A DNA stretch of 64,000 nucleotides, from contig BTVV01000027.1 of the NCBI GenBank assembly GCA_045863855.1, positions 1 through 64,000 of the forward strand. The letters are read 5' to 3'. Origin of the DNA: Planctomycetota bacterium (GTDB lineage Bacteria > Planctomycetota > SZUA-567 > H5-PLA8). Made by a program: the position numbers. This document shows, one piece after another, positions 6,001-12,000 of the stretch; within the stretch, counting starts at the first letter, position 1, and each line of letters starts with the position of its first letter.

Positions 6001-9000
6001 TATCGGCAAGCAGGATGAAGCGGTACAAGGCACGTGCCGCTCGGTCTCGGCATACCTCGCGCCCAGCAACGCGCTTTTCTTCGGCGCTCAGCAGTTCAGT
6101 TTCGCTCCGTTCATCAAACAATTGTCGGACAACGCCGCCGACGCTCCGCCCAACGACCCGAGCGTGGCGAACTTGCGCAAGTTCATCAACGGGCTGCAGA
6201 CGGCCATGGGCGCGGCCAACTTCGAGGAAGTCGTACGCCGCTTCGATCCGTTCAAGGGCGAGGTTTCGGTGCAGCTCAGCTACATTCCGGGCGGCCAGAA
6301 CCTGCTCGAGATTTTCCAGCCGATTCTGGCGGTGGAGTTCAATCGCGCGGACCTGGCGGAGATCTCCAACACGCTTGAGAAGCTGCGGCAGGCTTCGGGG
6401 ATGACTTACAAGAAGCTGACCTACCACGACGCGGAAGTCTGGTACCAGGTGGGCGCCATGCCGGGGGCCGAAGGCCAGGGCCAGCAAACCCACGGCTTCC
6501 TCGAATCCCTATTCGCGCCCGCCGCGGCGCCGGGGCAAAAGGTCGAGAAGCAGGTCGGGACGCCGTTCTTCGTCGGCTATGCCTTGGTCAGCGTGACGCC
6601 CAAGGACGGGGAACAAGGCAAGTGGTTCGTACTCTTCTCGGACAGCGTCAAGGCGCTGAAGAAAGCGATCCAGCAGGGAACGGTGCATCGCCACAGCCTG
6701 GCTCAGCGCGACGAGTTCAAATCGCTCTCGGACCAATTCGACGCGCAGCGCTACAACTTCAACTTCCTGGATCTGCCGCGCGTGACCGAGGCGATGTACC
6801 GCCAGATTCTGCCCGAGCTTTCGCGCATGTCGGGCAGCCGCAACGGCATCTTCGAACTGCTGCCGCCCGAAAACGTGGTAGTGCCGCACCTTTCGGCGAT
6901 GGGCTGGGCCAAGACCGTGCATAACGAAGGGCTGCTGATGGAGTTCGTTTCGCCGACGGGCAACCTGTCGCTGGGCGGCCTGATCGGCGCCTTCGCGCTG
7001 CCGCGGATCCAGGCCGAGCGGCAGATGGCCGTCAGCCGCCAGGCCGAGGACAACTTCAAGCGCCTCAACCTGGGCCTGCACCTCTACGCCGCCGACTTCG
7101 ACCGCTTCCCCGTGCGCCTCTCGGATCTGCATCCGAATTATGTCAGCGAATTCTCGGTCTTCGAGTCGCCGTTCAAGAAGGGCGCCGTACGCAGCGAGAA
7201 GGACATCGACGACATCGAGAAGACCAACCTCGTCTACGTCCCCGGCCGCCCGCTGCAGGACATGTCCGACCAGATCCTGCTTTTCGAAGTCCGCCCGGCG
7301 GGCATCTATTCGAGCCTGGACGGGGAGTACCGGACCGTGCACCACGTCCTGCAGCTCGACGGGCGCGTACGCGGCATTCCGGCTTCTCGCCTGCGCCAGC
7401 TCCTGAAGGATGTACGCGGTCTGCCGAAGGAACTGGACCTCCAGCCCGGCGCGAAGCTGCTGCAGCCGGGCGGCACCTTCGGGACCACCGGAGCCGCTCC
7501 GTCGGGAGCGGGGACCGCGCCGCTGCCCGAATCCGCCGACGAGAACTCGCTGGTGCCGATGGGTCCGGGCCGCCGGCCCACCCGGAAGTAAACGCGCCTG
7601 AAATTTGACTGCGCCCGCACGCTCAAATAGCCGATTCTTGGGAAGACCGTTCGCCCGGAGCGCCCTTCGCGCTCCGTGGCGCGCGGCCCGAAGCCGCCGC
7701 GCGCGTTGGCGTCCGGCGGCGCCCCCCATTTCGCAAAGGAGCCGGACCTATGAGCATCGCCACCGTCGAACGCGCGGGCCGCCTGGACGCCGCCACCGGA
7801 CAACCCGTCGCGGCCGGGCGCACCGTTTTTGACGCCGCCGGACGCAGCGCCGAGTTCTACGATCACCTGCGCGCGCACTACCGCGAGACGCGCCGCACGC
7901 CCGTCGAGATTCCCGTACGCATCAACGTGCTCCTCGAAGACGGCTCGCTCTTCGACAAGGGTACGGCGACCATCCGGAACATTTCGCCCAGCGGCGCGCT
8001 GTTGGGCGACGTGAAGATCGAGCGGGGGGTCTTCCCGGTCTCCTCGTTCCGCTTCGAGATCGTGATGCAGGGCGGCGCGTACGACGGAATCGGACTGGAA
8101 GCGCGGCCCGTACGCTTCGAATCGTCGGTGCGGGGCATCGGCGTGAAGTTCGAAGAGATTTTCGTCGCGGTCTGAGACTCGAATCGATCGGGGCTTTTCG
8201 CGGCCCGGCCTGCGCAGAGCACGCCGGGCCGTTTCCTTTGAATGCGACCTCGCATATTCGTCTATGGATCGCGCTTCCGCGCGGCGAGCACCGCCACGGC
8301 ATCGTCGAAGGCCTCGATCCGTTCGGGCCAGGCAAAACGCGCGAAGTCGGCTCGGAGTTCCGCGCCCAAAGCGCGCGCCGATTCGGGCGCCGCCGCGTAG
8401 GCGCGCAGGCGTTCGACTAGCTCGGCGTCGTCGCGGTAGAGCACGCGTGCGTGCCGCCCGGGCGGGACCAGTTCCGGATAGCTCAAGCGATTCGGCAGCA
8501 AGACCGCGCAGCCGTGCAGGCACGCCTCAACGGTGCTCAGCCCGAAGAACTCGTGCGCGGCAGTGCTGACCGTCACGTCGCAGCTTGCCAGCAATCGCGC
8601 ATACTCCGTACGCGACGGGGCAAAGCCCCAGTGCGCGATCCGCTCACCCAAGCGCACGCGCGCTACCTCGAAGACGGCCGGGCTGTCGCGGTAGCGTTCG
8701 CCCAGCACCACGGCTTCGAAGGGCACGCCGCCGTCGTGAAGGGCGAAGAGCGCCGCGAAGAACCCTTCGGGATTTTTGTCGAACTCCCAGCGGTGATTCC
8801 AGCCGATCCGCAGCGGCGCGCCGGGGGCGCGCGGCGGCGGCTCCTGCGCCGGAGCGGCGGCCCCGAGGTGCAGCACGCGCGCGCGCAAGGCGAGTGCTTC
8901 GCTGAGCCCCTTCGGCACCGCGTCGGGCATCCGCTTCAGGAAAGCCGGCGCCGCGGCGAGAAACTCATCGCGATGGAAAGCGCTGTTGAACCAGACTTCG

Positions 9001-12000
9001 TCGGCGGCCAGACAGCCTACGATGTTGATGAAGCCGTAGTGGTAGTCGCGCTCGTCTTCGTGGCGCACCGGGTAGGTGAGCTGGTTCTCGTGCATGAACA
9101 TGGCGATGGGCGGCGGAGTTCCGCGCGGCCACCGGCCGCGAGCCAGACCCAGGAACTCGGCCAAGTTAAGGAAATCGCTGACCAGCAGGAGATCGCATGC
9201 ACCCAGGCGTTCGACTTCACCCAGGAAATGCAACGCGCTCCCGCGCATGCGCCACTTCCATTTTCGCGCCGGCTGAGTGAAGAACTCGAAGCGGTGCCGG
9301 CTGTGCGCGGCGAGGTCTTCCAGAAACTGCTTATGCGAACCCCCGAAATAGGGTTCGACCGCGCCCACGGTCAGGGCTCGAGCCGGGTTATCCGTTGCGG
9401 TACGCGACATGGGAGCCATGATACTCGAAGCCCAAACGCGCGCGATTGCGCAAGACGAATCGCGGGGTCGTGCGTCCAAGTAGCAGTCCGTTACCTGGAG
9501 GCCGCCGGTATGCAACCCTTCCTCACGCTCGGACTGCTATTCGCATGGGCGCTCGCCGGAACGGCCGCTGCGGCCGATCCGGCCGTGGAGCGCTTTGCGC
9601 GCTTTCGAGACGGCACGATCCTGCGCGTGGAACTGGACGACGCGCCGCTAAACCTGCGGGTCGTGACCGCGTCCGGCACCGCCGAGGCGCGCACTGTACG
9701 CGCGTCCGAGTTGGAGCGTTTCCTGCTCGCGCGCCAGCCCCGGCTGGACGAACTGCTTAAACTCGGCGCGCTGATCACAAAGCTCGCCGACGACGAGTAC
9801 GGCGTCCGCGAACTGGCTTCCGAGGAGATACGGAAGCTGGGCGCTCCGATCCGCCAGGACGTGCTGCGGCTGATGGCCGAGCATGCCGATCCGGAGATCC
9901 GCGCGCGGCTGGGCCAGATTATGGAGCGCCTGCCCGCCGATGCGGCCGGCCCCGGGGGAGCGCTGTGCGACGAGGTTGTGCTGGGCGGCACGCTCCTGCG
10001 GGCCGATCTCGGCGCGCTTACCTTAAAAGTGCGAATCCAGGGACAGGAACTCGCGCTCGAACGCGAGATACTGCTGGGACTATCGGCCTCCGCGCCGGAA
10101 GCCGCGGCCGCCCGGCCGGCGGCGGGCGCCGCGAAAGCCCGGCGGATCGATGCGGACGACGATGCGGCGTTCGGCGCGCAGCCGACGCGGATCGACTTCG
10201 AGCGCGCTCCTTCCGGCGAAGCGCTCCGCGCCGGGCAGGACATCCGCGAAGCGTTCGTCGCGCGCGGGTTTCGCCTGAGCACGTCCATCGAGAACGCGAT
10301 CGTTTCGGTGAACGACTACAACGTCCAGGGCCGCAGCCAGGGGCTCTCCTGCGCCACCCACCAGCCGCTCTGGCAGGGGCAGATCACGATCCGTTTCTGC
10401 GTTCCCGGCCAGCCTTCGGCGCCGGCCTGCGTCTCGGCCTTCGGGCTCTGGATCGCCGCGGTCTCGCCCAACAGCACGAGCATCGAGGCATACGACGCGT
10501 TTGGGAAGCCGATCCTTACGGTTGCGACCACACGCGGGCCCAATCAGTTCCTGGGTCTGCATAGCCGCGTGCCGATCGCTTCCATCAAGGTAGTGCCCAA
10601 CCTGGCCGTCGATCCCGACTACACGATCGACGATCTGGTTTTCGATGCGCCGCGTCCGGTGCAGGAGTTAGCGCATCCCAAGCTCTGCGCCGCGCGCTTC
10701 GCCAGCGGGGAGCGCGTCTTCGCGGAGCGGTTGACCGTAAGCGAGGGCGCGTGCCGGATGGAGAACTTGAGCGTCGGGCCGGCGAAGCTCGAACGGCCCG
10801 CGGCGGACCTGCGCGAATTGGCCACTCCGTACGAGAGCTGGACCCCGCCGGAGCGCACGCCCGGTTGCTGGCTGATGCTGCTCGACGGTTCGGTACTGCG
10901 CGGCACCGCGGAGGACGGCTTGCGCGCCGCGCGGCTTCCCGCGCTGGCGCTCGATGCGGGGTCGCTCGCGGCTCTGTGGGGCGACCGTTCTCCTTACCTG
11001 GTCCCGCCCGAAGGCGAAGCTTGGACGCCGGGCTGCGCGCGCATTCTTCCCAGCGAGCCCGCGCGGCTGCATCCGGCGTGGAAGTTGACGCCCCAAGGAC
11101 TCGAGGGAACCGCCGGACCCGGCGTCGAAACGACGGTTTACGCTTATCCCGAACTGCCCATGGTCTGGGTCGCCACGCCTCCGAAGCTGGACGAGAAGGC
11201 CGGACTCGCCCGGCTGAACAGCGCCGAATTGCTGGTGCTCACGGCCGGTGGCGAACGAGGGTTCAGCTTCGTAAGCTGGAGCGCCGATGAGGTCCGCTTC
11301 CGCCACGATTCGCGCGAAATCCGAGTGCCGCTGCGCGAAGTCTCCACGATCGACCTGCCCGCACCGTAGCCGAATGCCGATCGAATTAGGTTTATTTTTA
11401 GTGTACTAGGCATCCGACCTCTATATCTAATCGGCTCGGAGTGGGGTATTCTATAAAAGGAGCGCCGGTCGATGATGCGGTGCCTATGGCGATGTAATCA
11501 AATACGGGGTCGAAACTTACATGAGCGCTCGAGATGTTTGGTTCGGGAATACCGCTTGGCCTTCGGGAGCTTCGCCCGGGGCTTTCGCACGAGATGTCTT
11601 CCGTATCGCAGAAGCTAAAACCGATCGTGAGAAGGCACTCGCATTCGCGCATTGGCTGATTCGCTGCATGAATCGTGGCGCGAACCTAAAGCTGCCCAGC
11701 ATGGGCAGCTACGTTCATTGCGCCGATCCGCTGCTGCTCTTTTCGTCGTGGGGGCACAACGAATGCACGGGCTGGGGCTGGGTGGCAACGGAAGCGCTTC
11801 AAGCCGCGGGGCTGAAGGCGCGGCGCGTGGTGGTTCACGACAGCGGGCACACCTTCTATGAGGTCTGGTACAAGGGCCTCGACGGCGAGGAAGGCTGGCA
11901 CGCGTTCGATCCGTTCCTGGGCTGGTGGTACACGAACGACCGCGGCGAAGTGGCTTCGTGCGAGGAACTGACGGCGCATCCGGATCTGGTGGCGCATCCG

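What a model noticed while it worked through the whole genome (the two positions that open the first line are those of the whole stretch)
8262..9410. Bacterial full-length homolog of the vertebrate queuosine mannosyltransferase QTMAN in a genome with the complete queuos [...]
g01877 (382 aa) matches vertebrate tRNA-queuosine alpha-mannosyltransferase (QTMAN/GTDC1) end to end, including its specific N-terminal domain, and the genome encodes queC, queD, queF, tgt, queA and queG. Boldest reading: this bacterium glycosylates queuosine-34 in tRNA (a manQ-like nucleoside), a modification so far known only from animals. That would show that glyco-Q is bacterial in origin and give an easily expressed enzyme for making glyco-Q tRNA.
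Evidence so far: swissprot.tsv: best hit zebrafish qtman, 35.6% identity, alignment/query length 1.06, E 1.4e-66. pfam.tsv: QTMAN_N 17-183 (1.2e-58, model 4-167 of 168) + Glycos_transf_1 206-350. relatives.tsv: PF12038 in 959 Planctomycetota and 6871 bacterial species genomes (floor). Q pathway genes: g04564/g00558 (QueC), g01213/g01873 (PTPS/QueD), g03046 (QueF), g00546 (TGT), g03913 (QueA), g03982 (QueG); a QueD paralog lies 5 kb away on the same contig. The QTMAN papers seen do not discuss bacterial homologs.
(Added by a program. Inside this text positions count along the whole contig: contig position 1 is position 1 of the stretch shown here. "Call 12" and the like, gene names such as g00115 and contig names such as C1 are that model's own, and its searches are not shown. 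The text may have been shortened before it was handed on; [...] marks where a part breaks off. The agent that wrote the report below was given it as the finding of a first reader that could run no searches.)

Follow-up and report, generated by a model that had tools for sequence, protein, structure and literature searches.

The report
Bacterial relative of queuosine-tRNA mannosyltransferase
This planctomycete gene is a true, intact bacterial relative of the animal enzyme that puts mannose on the tRNA base queuosine, so the bacterium may sugar-coat its own tRNA, but no experiment has tested this and databases already name the family by homology.

Summary
Window 8262-9410, on the minus strand, encodes a 382-aa protein with a full-length QTMAN_N domain (E 3.3e-58) and a GT4 donor domain. 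It is the only such gene in the genome.

New evidence here:
- It aligns end to end at 36-40% identity with 16 of 16 chosen animal QTMAN/GTDC1 proteins. 34 columns are invariant, and K212 aligns with macaque K296, the lysine whose K296A change inactivates human QTMAN.
- In a tree, 22 animal proteins form one clade beside a TA06 sequence and a Planctomycetota-dominated group, on the window protein's side of a 97% split.
- The genome has TGT, QueA, QueG, QueF, QueD and all four GUN tRNAs.

Tests of a queuosine link are only consistent with it:
- Acidimicrobiia: 65 of 65 carriers have QueA, but clade structure confounds this.
- Anaerolineae: 6 of 14 QueA-less genomes keep the gene. The five tested have a variant, queuine-salvage-like TGT.
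- No Q gene or GUN tRNA is a conserved neighbour, and there is no exclusion with GluQRS.

The scan flagged bacterial QTMAN homologues at least 7 times before on other DNA. Best reading, 0.55: a queuosine-tRNA glycosyltransferase. It is a new member of a known, homology-named family.

The parts
8262..9410 (-). QTMAN-like glycosyltransferase gene, 382 aa (P0001), monocistronic
   Evidence: Translation without stops. Pfam QTMAN_N plus Glycos_transf_1. AlphaFold2 model with pLDDT 94.7 and pTM 0.92, a two-Rossmann GT-B fold. The conserved flanking genes at 7750-8175 and about 9450-11369 are on the + strand, so the gene stands alone.
8862..9362 (-). N-terminal QTMAN_N (acceptor-side) domain, residues 17-183
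   Evidence: PF12038, E 3.3e-58, model 4-167 of 168; the same place was found by the genome search. 16 of the 34 columns invariant between 16 animals and 12 bacteria lie here: E19 G24 S25 H26 W51 W53 H107 E108 Q110 L111 Y113 P114 D137 F141 N142 S143.
9243..9263 (-). K50-W-K-W-R-M-R56 motif at the start of helix 51-70
   Evidence: In 94 bacterial sequences W51 is invariant, R54 is present in 93 and K52 in 89. Animals have K-W-H-W-R, with W51 and W53 invariant, in 16 of 16. A role in acceptor or nucleic-acid contact is inferred, not shown.
8361..8795 (-). C-terminal GT4 donor-binding domain, residues 206-350
   Evidence: Glycos_transf_1 E 1.3e-8 and Glyco_trans_1_2 E 3.6e-9. The nearest solved folds are retaining GT4 enzymes: GlgM 6tvp (E 3.4e-15, TM 0.70-0.73), MshA, SenB, sucrose-phosphate synthase, TreT, BshA.
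8775..8777 (-). Codon of K212 in the invariant W204-x-H-R-W-E-x-D-K212 motif
   Evidence: K212 is invariant in 94 of 94 bacterial sequences and in 28 of 28 bacteria plus animals. It aligns with K296 of the 458-aa macaque orthologue. K296A abolishes manQ formation by human QTMAN (passages of bioRxiv 10.64898/2026.06.28.735034).
8526..8552 (-). E287-x7-E295 motif (GT4 'EX7E')
   Evidence: In 94 bacterial sequences, position 287 is E in 68 and D in 26, and position 295 is E in 89 and Q in 5. Both are E in 16 of 16 animals. Naming this the EX7E motif of retaining GT4 enzymes is from recall.

Best explanation
The gene encodes a cytoplasmic, retaining GT-B (GT4-type) glycosyltransferase orthologous to animal QTMAN/GTDC1. 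The most likely mechanism has three steps. The C-terminal domain binds a nucleotide sugar through R207, K212 and the E287...E295 motif. The QTMAN_N domain docks the anticodon loop of a queuosine-bearing tRNA. A hexose is then transferred to a hydroxyl of the cyclopentenediol of Q34, giving a manQ-like nucleoside. What is shown: the homology, the fold, conservation of the catalytic-lysine equivalent and of the acceptor-domain residues, and the presence of the genes that make Q-tRNA. What is inferred: the acceptor (Q34 in tRNA), which tRNA is targeted, and the sugar (GDP-mannose by analogy only).
For: (1) The protein has a full-length QTMAN_N plus GT4 architecture and a confident GT-B model with pLDDT 94.7.
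(2) It aligns end to end with 16 of 16 chosen animal QTMAN/GTDC1 proteins at 36-40% identity, about the same as to distant bacterial members (39-45%). 34 columns are invariant, 16 of them in the acceptor-side domain. The N domain is 40% and the C domain 44% identical to a snail GTDC1. Such even conservation argues against a changed acceptor.
(3) K212 aligns with macaque K296, and human K296A is inactive.
(4) The window protein shares K50, R56, R121, H286 and E287 with all 16 animals, where other bacterial clades vary. In the tree it sits with the 22 animals on one side of a split with 97% SH-aLRT support.
(5) The genome can make the substrate: TGT, QueA, QueG, QueF, QueD, and tRNA-Asp, Tyr, Asn and His with GUN anticodons.
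(6) In the Acidimicrobiia sample, 65 of 65 PF12038 carriers have QueA, against 159 of 236 non-carriers. None of the 77 QueA-less genomes carries PF12038. The known Q-dependent enzyme GluQRS behaves the same way, with 40 of 40 carriers QueA-positive.
(7) Carriers that lack QueA still keep a route to Q:
- Planctomycetota G484 and G665 have TGT and QueG.
- Five tested Anaerolineae all have a TGT. The three of them tested for QueC and QueG lack both.
- Their TGT pocket reads GG-SLG[RQ] instead of GGLSVGE. This resembles the GG[LS][AS]G signature reported for queuine-salvaging TGTs (passages of PMC11570991).
(8) None of 14 model control genomes, including E. coli and B. subtilis, has PF12038. That would explain why no glyco-Q has been reported from bacteria.
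Against: - No neighbour family is conserved across phyla. In 81 loci the best were an ABC ATPase in 12 and an SDR in 7, both with scattered position and strand.
- No TGT, QueA or QueG lies within 1.31 Mb of flanks, and QueD appears only in the window and its closest relative.
- 0 of 9 tRNA genes in 60 loci has a GUN anticodon.
- The Acidimicrobiia association collapses to about one independent contrast. The sample is three interleaved series with PF12038/QueA counts of 46/81 and 81/81; 9/81 and 65/81; 0/81 and 35/81. No kinship labels or completeness figures were given for it.
- There is no association in Anaerolineae: 54 of 137 QueA-positive against 6 of 14 QueA-negative genomes carry the gene.
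- There is none in Planctomycetota either, where QueA is in 295 of 301 genomes.
- 8 of 80 carrier genomes show no QueA. One of them is a MAG labelled Thermoplasmatales archaeon.
- There is no exclusion with GluQRS. Within the series that holds GluQRS, 3 of 9 carriers have it against 29 of 72 non-carriers.
- The family is not basic: median pI is 6.2 overall and 7.2 for the N domain.
- Two acceptor-domain positions are fixed differently in the two groups. Position 52 is K in 89 of 94 bacteria and H in 16 of 16 animals. Position 146 is H in 87 of 94 bacteria and N in 16 of 16 animals.
- The nearest solved folds all act on small molecules or glycans.
Confidence: 0.55

Rival explanations
1. It is a GT4 glycosyltransferase that shares ancestry with QTMAN but acts on a different acceptor in bacteria, such as a small metabolite, lipid or glycan. 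The tRNA-queuosine specificity would then have arisen only on the long stem leading to animals.
For: - GT4 enzymes change acceptors readily (general knowledge).
- The closest solved folds (GlgM, MshA, BshA, SenB, TreT, sucrose-phosphate synthase) all act on small molecules.
- The animal clade sits on a long stem of 0.69 substitutions per column. It has fixed changes at two acceptor-domain positions: K52 to H and H146 to N.
- There is no neighbourhood link to Q or tRNA genes.
- There is no QueA association in Anaerolineae or Planctomycetota.
- The proteins are not basic.
- JGI names some members 'glycosyltransferase involved in cell wall biosynthesis'.
Against: - 16 acceptor-domain columns are invariant between bacteria and animals, and the N domain is nearly as conserved as the donor domain (40% against 44%).
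- The gene is never embedded in a recurrent polysaccharide, lipid or thiol-cofactor cluster in 81 loci.
- No carrier was found that demonstrably lacks a TGT: 39 of 40, 4 of 4, 5 of 5, and the own genome. TGT is near-universal, however.
- 0 of 77 QueA-less Acidimicrobiia carry the gene.
Confidence: 0.33
2. It glycosylates a free or non-tRNA 7-deazaguanine compound (queuine, queuosine nucleoside or nucleotide, or a deazaguanine base in DNA), for instance for storage, export or salvage control.
For: - The gene is retained in tgt-only Anaerolineae that must import a Q precursor.
- An earlier, unchecked note of this scan reports a distant QTMAN_N relative in a phage deazaguanine-DNA gene set (e1-5374928).
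Against: - No relative was found beside dpd-like or transporter genes in 81 loci.
- There was no match in 50,697 phage records or 72,556 plasmids, and only one weak C-terminal hit in viral contigs.
- The characterised family member acts on tRNA (passages of PMC11755703).
Confidence: 0.08
3. The gene is a decaying or functionless remnant.
For: Its distribution is patchy: 67 of 301 Planctomycetota, and only 2 of 7 other genomes of its own family. Broken copies exist elsewhere, for example G767 with 4 in-frame TGA and G592 split in two.
Against: The reading frame is intact. All 21 columns invariant across 94 bacterial sequences are kept. The closest relative is 96% identical, and the model is of high confidence.
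Confidence: 0.02

Closest known systems
Animal QTMAN (GTDC1), tRNA-queuosine alpha-mannosyltransferase (Zhao et al. 2023, Cell; that paper is not held, so it is known here only through citing papers)
   Same: Both have the QTMAN_N plus GT4 architecture and align end to end at 36-40% identity, with 34 invariant columns including S25-H26, W51, W53, H107-E108, N142-S143 and W204-x-HRWE-x-DK212. K212 corresponds to K296. The window protein's subgroup is the nearest to the animal clade.
   Different: - The bacterial protein lacks the low-complexity inter-domain insert of roughly 60-110 residues seen in bilaterian proteins. Two cnidarians lack most of it too.
- Position 52 is K and position 146 is H, where animals have H and N.
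- The host makes Q de novo instead of salvaging queuine.
- Activity, target tRNA and sugar donor are untested.
Bacterial 'DUF3524 domain-containing protein' / 'tRNA-queuosine alpha-mannosyltransferase family protein' (names given by NCBI and automatic cluster names)
   Same: This gene is a plain member. 4503 protein clusters score E<=1e-10, and the best is 96% identical. Atlas clusters with 100% PF12038 carry these names.
   Different: Nothing distinguishes it from the family. None of the papers I could search describes a bacterial member.
GluQRS (YadB), glutamyl-queuosine tRNA-Asp synthetase: the known bacterial enzyme that decorates the Q34 cyclopentenediol
   Same: It works on the same proposed acceptor. 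It is also a patchy accessory gene, found only in QueA-positive genomes (40 of 40 in the Acidimicrobiia sample).
   Different: The fold and chemistry are unrelated. GluQRS is absent above its cut-off from the own genome and present in 1 of 40 carrier genomes. It is not mutually exclusive with PF12038, since 4 genomes have both.
Retaining GT4 enzymes with solved structures (GlgM 6tvp, MshA 3c4q, BshA, SenB, TreT, sucrose-phosphate synthase)
   Same: GT-B fold with TM 0.62-0.73, and a donor-domain sequence match to 7qsg.
   Different: Identity is only 13-18%. Their N-terminal domains are not QTMAN_N, and their acceptors are small molecules.

Membership tests
QTMAN / GTDC1 (tRNA-queuosine alpha-mannosyltransferase) | Full-length QTMAN_N (PF12038) N-terminal domain | tested here: met
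   E 3.3e-58, 196.7 bits against a cut-off of 25, model positions 4-167 of 168.
QTMAN / GTDC1 (tRNA-queuosine alpha-mannosyltransferase) | C-terminal GT4-type donor domain in a GT-B fold | tested here: met
   Glycos_transf_1 at 206-350. Model pLDDT 94.7. Foldseek TM 0.70-0.73 to GlgM and MshA.
QTMAN / GTDC1 (tRNA-queuosine alpha-mannosyltransferase) | Lysine equivalent to human K296, needed for manQ formation | tested here: met
   K212 aligns with K296 of the 458-aa macaque orthologue and is K in 28 of 28 aligned sequences. The K296A result comes from passages of bioRxiv 10.64898/2026.06.28.735034. That human and macaque numbering coincide is assumed, not checked.
QTMAN / GTDC1 (tRNA-queuosine alpha-mannosyltransferase) | End-to-end similarity to experimentally characterised vertebrate members | tested here: met
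   36-38% identity to macaque, opossum, bird, alligator, two fishes, shark and coelacanth proteins over both domains. The characterised human and zebrafish proteins themselves were not in hand.
QTMAN / GTDC1 (tRNA-queuosine alpha-mannosyltransferase) | Substrate available: Q34 in GUN tRNAs | tested here: met
   TGT, QueA, QueG, QueF, QueD and tRNA-Asp, Tyr, Asn and His (GUN) are present in the genome. QueC and QueE were not checked.
QTMAN / GTDC1 (tRNA-queuosine alpha-mannosyltransferase) | Phyletic dependence on a route to Q-tRNA | tested here: inconclusive
   Acidimicrobiia: 65 of 65 carriers are QueA-positive, but the result is confounded by clade structure. Anaerolineae: no association, 6 of 14 against 54 of 137. 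Those exceptions keep a queuine-salvage-like TGT.
QTMAN / GTDC1 (tRNA-queuosine alpha-mannosyltransferase) | Transfers mannose from GDP-mannose to Q34 of tRNA-Asp | not testable with these tools
   This needs an enzyme assay or tRNA mass spectrometry.
Generic GT4 cell-envelope or polysaccharide glycosyltransferase | Embedded in a polysaccharide, LPS or cell-wall gene cluster | tested here: not met
   The gene stands alone between opposite-strand genes. No recurrent glycan-cluster neighbours were found in 81 loci. NCBIfam EPS and GT4 equivalogs score 16-27 bits against cut-offs of 400 or more.

The most novel reading that the evidence does not exclude
Many bacteria outside the model organisms carry a glycosylated queuosine in tRNA made by this family: about a fifth of sampled Planctomycetota and Acidimicrobiia and two fifths of sampled Anaerolineae carry the gene. 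The animal QTMAN gene would descend from a bacterial lineage near Planctomycetota/TA06. Some Anaerolineae that lost de novo Q synthesis would run a eukaryote-like two-step route: a variant TGT inserts salvaged queuine, and the QTMAN-like enzyme then glycosylates it.
Probability: 0.3. Interest if true: 0.8.

Novelty: new member of a known kind. Interest (0 to 1): 0.5.

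Why it matters
If the enzyme does glycosylate Q34, it would add a new hypermodified nucleoside to bacterial tRNA. It would also show that glyco-Q is not an animal invention. And it would supply a small, linker-free enzyme, probably easy to express, for making glyco-Q tRNA and for structural work, since no QTMAN structure was found among solved chains.

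The question is cheap to settle. Three cultured carriers were found, and E. coli offers a Q-containing, PF12038-free host.

For this particular window, though, the gene is one ordinary member of a family of thousands that databases already name by homology. The scan has reported the same idea several times before.

Tried and rejected
- **Conserved operon partners.** I clustered 3958 ORFs within 8 kb of the gene in 81 loci. Only lineage-local synteny appeared, so this was rejected as support.
- **Direct search for Q genes.** A phmmer search for TGT, QueA, QueG and QueD in all flanks found nothing beyond QueD in the window and L006.
- **GUN tRNA genes next to the gene.** None were found.
- **TGT co-occurrence.** This is uninformative, because TGT is found in 14 of 14 control genomes.
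- **GluQRS replacement idea.** GluQRS is rare in carriers (1 of 40) but not excluded within the clade that has it. Rejected as evidence.
- **Phage or plasmid relatives as a link to deazaguanine DNA.** There was no match in phages or plasmids, and only one weak C-terminal hit in viral contigs.
- **Fusion proteins as Rosetta stones.** Only 3 long hits were found. Two bacterial ones have extra regions with no informative domain, and one is a snail gene model joined to a kinase, probably an annotation artefact.
- **Global charge as an RNA-binding sign.** Not supportive. The own-genome GT4 control gave only 2 hits and was useless.
- **The original QTMAN paper.** It could not be read, so whether it discusses bacterial homologues stays open.
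- **Greedy longest-ORF gene calling.** It failed in this GC-rich window: an antisense 972-aa ORF masked the gene. I replaced it with all-ORF clustering.

Full report
**What is there**

Window 8262-9410 encodes a 382-aa protein (P0001) on the minus strand, with ATG at 9410. The plus-strand reading of the same span contains a stop. Pfam gives a full-length QTMAN_N domain: residues 17-183, model 4-167 of 168, E 3.3e-58, 196.7 bits against a cut-off of 25. It is followed by GT4 donor-domain families, with Glycos_transf_1 at 206-350.

NCBIfam has no equivalog. Its best hits score 16-27 bits against cut-offs of 400 or more. Sequence search of solved structures finds only weak donor-domain matches, so no QTMAN structure was found among the solved chains. 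The gene is the only PF12038 match in the 6.93-Mb, 287-contig genome, which is 93.9% complete.

Comparison with the closest relative locus, L006 (70% identity), shows that the conserved flanking genes are on the opposite strand. These are window 7750-8175 and a gene ending at 11369. The gene is therefore monocistronic.

**The family**

The protein search returned 4503 clusters at E<=1e-10 among 8000 scored candidates. The 120 listed all carry PF12038 plus PF00534. The sources name them 'DUF3524 domain-containing protein' or 'glycosyltransferase involved in cell wall biosynthesis'. Atlas clusters of the same architecture are named automatically 'tRNA-queuosine alpha-mannosyltransferase (family protein)'.

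The best 80 loci span Planctomycetota, Verrucomicrobiota, Thermodesulfobacteriota, Spirochaetota, Chloroflexota, Bacteroidota, Balneolota, Acidimicrobiia, Pseudomonadota, KSB1, TA06, Krumholzibacteriota and one MAG labelled Thermoplasmatales.

In sampled genomes the gene is patchy:
- 67 of 301 Planctomycetota, and 2 of 7 other genomes of the own family;
- 65 of 301 Acidimicrobiia;
- 60 of 151 Anaerolineae;
- 0 of 14 model control genomes.

The scan's own notebook shows that bacterial QTMAN homologues were reported at least seven times before on other DNA, always with the verdict 'true homologue, function untested'.

**Comparison with animal QTMAN (new here)**

A search for longer relatives brought up a snail GTDC1 gene model. 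It is 40% identical in the N domain and 44% in the C domain. Using it as the query returned 120 animal QTMAN/GTDC1 proteins, from cnidarians to primates.

I aligned P0001 with 16 animal sequences, chosen by me to span phyla, and 11 bacterial ones. P0001 is 36-40% identical to every animal sequence, which is no less than to distant bacterial members. There are 34 invariant columns, 16 of them in the acceptor-side domain.

K212 aligns with K296 of the 458-aa macaque orthologue. A 2026 preprint reports that human QTMAN K296A cannot restore manQ (passages of bioRxiv 10.64898/2026.06.28.735034). I assume human and macaque numbering coincide.

Animals differ in three ways:
- an inter-domain insert, which is absent or nearly so in the two cnidarians;
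- H in place of K52 (bacteria: K in 89 of 94);
- N in place of H146 (bacteria: H in 87 of 94).

**Phylogeny**

I built a quick IQ-TREE (LG+G4, SH-aLRT support only) of 94 bacterial and 22 animal rows. The bacterial rows were 21 database proteins and 73 of the 80 loci. L003, L005, L006, L008, L034, L059 and L070 were left out. L003 was dropped by the length filter. I chose to omit the other six and did not verify the reasons for each: genes cut by contig ends, overlong ORF calls, or a likely near-duplicate already among the protein ids.

The animals form one clade (support 100). They sit next to a TA06 sequence (98), which already has N at position 146, and then next to a group of 8 bacterial proteins, four of them labelled Planctomycetota/Planctomycetes or Brocadiia, one labelled only 'bacterium' and three unnamed. 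A split with 97% support puts the window protein, 29 other bacteria and all 22 animals against the 64 remaining bacteria.

The root is only a midpoint. 'Animals nested in bacteria' is therefore suggested, not shown. The bacterial sample is also biased towards relatives of the query.

**Structure**

AlphaFold2 with the 94-row alignment gives pLDDT 94.7 and pTM 0.92, with two Rossmann-like halves. Foldseek's best solved matches are retaining GT4 enzymes: GlgM, MshA, SenB, sucrose-phosphate synthase, TreT, BshA and PglA. TM scores are 0.60-0.73 and identity 12-18%. All of these act on small molecules or glycans.

**Is the substrate there?**

The genome encodes TGT, QueA, QueG and QueF. A QueD equivalog lies in the window at 3314-3763, minus strand. 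The genome has no QueH. It has tRNA-Asp(GUC) x2, Tyr(GUA) x2, Asn(GUU) x2 and His(GUG) x1. QueC and QueE were not checked. GluQRS is absent above its cut-off; the only hit is the 507-aa GluRS.

**Tests of a link to queuosine**

*(a) Neighbourhood.* I clustered all ORFs of 70 aa or more within 8 kb of the gene in 81 loci (3958 ORFs, 191 clusters).
- No neighbour family recurs across phyla. The best are an ABC ATPase in 12 of 81 loci and an SDR in 7 of 81, with scattered distance and strand.
- The rest is lineage-local synteny. For example, an RsmB/F-type RNA methyltransferase lies directly downstream in 4 of 8 spirochaete loci.
- I annotated representatives of 22 of the top 40 clusters.
- A direct phmmer search of 1.31 Mb of flanks found no TGT, QueA or QueG. 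QueD appeared only in the window and L006.
- Of 9 tRNA genes in 60 loci, none has a GUN anticodon. The window has no tRNA gene.

*(b) Co-occurrence.* TGT is in 39 of 40 carrier genomes but also in 14 of 14 controls, so it says nothing. QueA is in 72 of 80 carriers, against 9 of 10 bacterial controls.

| Sample | PF12038 carriers with QueA | Non-carriers with QueA |
|---|---|---|
| Acidimicrobiia (301) | 65 of 65 | 159 of 236 |
| Planctomycetota (301) | 65 of 67 | 230 of 234 |
| Anaerolineae (151) | 54 of 60 | 83 of 91 |

- **Acidimicrobiia.** The naive Fisher p is 2.6e-10. GluQRS, a bona fide Q-dependent enzyme, shows the same pattern: 40 of 40 carriers are QueA-positive. But the handles fall into three interleaved series, with PF12038 and QueA counts of 46/81 and 81/81; 9/81 and 65/81; 0/81 and 35/81. 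The signal is therefore about one clade-level contrast. No kinship or completeness figures were given for this sample. Its tallies include the two genomes flagged unpublished, G248 and G282.
- **Planctomycetota.** QueA is nearly universal (295 of 301). The two QueA-less carriers, G484 and G665 (99% and 97% complete), have TGT and QueG. Their QueA is therefore probably an assembly gap.
- **Anaerolineae.** There is no association: carriers make up 54 of 137 QueA-positive and 6 of 14 QueA-negative genomes.

*(c) The Anaerolineae exceptions.*
- All five tested (G702, G723, G744, G760, G776) have a TGT.
- The three tested for QueC and QueG have neither. For QueC there are only 21-24-bit marginal hits in large ORFs.
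- Their TGT is a distinct type, shared by the QueA-less Anaerolineae carrier MAG G035:
  - the pocket reads 'GG-SLG[RQK]' in place of 'GGLSVGE';
  - 'PRHLLGIGE' stands in place of 'PRYLMGVG';
  - there is an insert of about 27 residues.
- Five other QueA-less carriers (G023, G034, G039, G484, G665) have the canonical pocket.
- A paper on Q salvage states that queuine-salvaging TGTs typically have GG[LS][AS]G where preQ1-type enzymes have GGLAVG (passages of PMC11570991). The variant lacks the valine but does not match that pattern exactly.
- This fits tgt-only queuine salvagers that still have Q-tRNA. It fits equally well a glycosyltransferase that does not care about Q.

*(d) GluQRS.* It is present above its cut-off in 1 of 40 carrier genomes. 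But within the Acidimicrobiia series that holds GluQRS, 3 of 9 carriers have it against 29 of 72 non-carriers. A replacement relationship is therefore not supported.

*(e) Charge.* The family's median pI is 6.2, and 7.2 for the N domain, so there is no global RNA-binding signature.

**Literature**

Searches were run for QTMAN+bacteria (9 papers), DUF3524 (0), GTDC1+queuosine (5), mannosyl-queuosine+bacterial+glycosyltransferase (1), manQ/galQ/bacteria/homolog (298 papers with at least 3 terms, 15 listed) and QTMAN+homolog (7). None of these was seen to describe a bacterial homologue.

I read only passages of five papers and of PMC11570991. The original Cell 2023 paper is not held and may mention bacterial homologues. 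A mosquito study reports QTMAN orthologues in nearly all Diptera and maps manQ in Aedes tRNA, so manQ is not restricted to vertebrates (passages of PMC11705514).

**Verdict**

The gene is an ordinary, intact member of the bacterial branch of the QTMAN family, and of the sub-branch nearest to animals.

The best-supported mechanism is glycosylation of Q34 in tRNA (0.55). It rests mainly on conservation of the acceptor-side domain and of the catalytic lysine, together with the presence of the substrate pathway. Genomic context and phyletic tests neither confirm nor exclude it. The main rival is a different acceptor (0.33). The question is experimentally cheap to settle.

In novelty, this is a new member of a known, homology-named family that the scan has flagged repeatedly.

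Noticed in passing
window 3314-3763 (-): This is a QueD equivalog (TIGR03367, 110.1 bits against a cut-off of 89.25) about 4.5 kb downstream of the glycosyltransferase on the same strand. An alpha/beta-hydrolase gene (same strand) and two + strand genes lie between them. The arrangement is kept in the 70%-identical relative L006 but in none of the other 79 loci.
   Followed up: yes
L083-L087 and L092 (TGT genes of G702, G744, G760, G723, G776, G035): The QueA-less Anaerolineae carry a distinct TGT subtype. The pocket reads 'GG-SLG[RQK]' instead of 'GGLSVGE', 'PRHLLGIGE' replaces 'PRYLMGVG', there is an insert of about 27 residues after 'FQVFSLGA', and a second insert lies before the zinc site. 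In the three genomes tested, QueC and QueG are also missing. It may be a queuine-salvaging TGT of free-living bacteria.
   Followed up: partly
G047, G056, G062, G064, G074 (Balneola/Balneolaceae genomes of L048, L057, L063, L065, L075): Each has two full-length QueA matches (E about 1e-115 to 1e-127) at different places. Several Acidimicrobiia also have two.
   Followed up: no
L028:11094-11903 (+) and 3 other spirochaete loci: An RsmB/F-type (NSUN-like) RNA m5C methyltransferase lies immediately downstream of the QTMAN-like gene on the same strand in 4 of 8 spirochaete loci. This is a lineage-local hint of an RNA substrate.
   Followed up: partly
L076 (contig of a MAG labelled Thermoplasmatales archaeon; gene at 9971-11086): A PF12038 gene lies on a 29.6%-GC contig of an archaeon-labelled MAG with no QueA match. 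It has the longest branch in the tree (1.35). Its neighbours (PolX, Fpg, DUF72, PfkB, ABC-2 transporter) do not settle whether the contig is archaeal or mis-binned.
   Followed up: partly
L040 and L042: The QTMAN-like proteins of a 'Bacteroidetes' MAG and a 'KSB1' MAG are almost identical (end branches 0.003 and 0.017). This suggests mis-binning, mislabelling or very recent transfer.
   Followed up: no
L103 (G665:C22:53000-66000): In this planctomycete the QTMAN-like gene (1774-2982, -) and QueG (11034-12119, +) lie about 8 kb apart. A sulfatase and a DUF1598 protein lie between them, with mixed strands, so this is not an operon.
   Followed up: yes
G026 contig C21:91031-92091; G767 contig C36:265738-266242: Two broken genes were seen. 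QueA of the carrier G026 is split, with an in-frame TGA. The PF12038 gene of G767 has 4 in-frame TGA codons.
   Followed up: no
G001:C370, G003:C74, G026:C21, G037:C13: Several carrier genomes have a second, divergent TGT-family paralogue (E 1e-91 to 1e-104). The G026 copy reads 'GGWPL' at the pocket.
   Followed up: no
window 13259-15421 (+); own genome: A threonyl-tRNA synthetase gene (720-aa ORF) lies here. ARAGORN finds 78 tRNA genes in the own genome, including two tRNA-Sec(UCA) and one odd call with a 4-base anticodon.
   Followed up: no
P0124 (Biomphalaria glabrata gene model, 1186 aa): This snail GTDC1 model is joined to an N-terminal protein-kinase domain and lacks the first 26 positions of QTMAN_N. 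It is probably a gene-model artefact rather than a real fusion.
   Followed up: no
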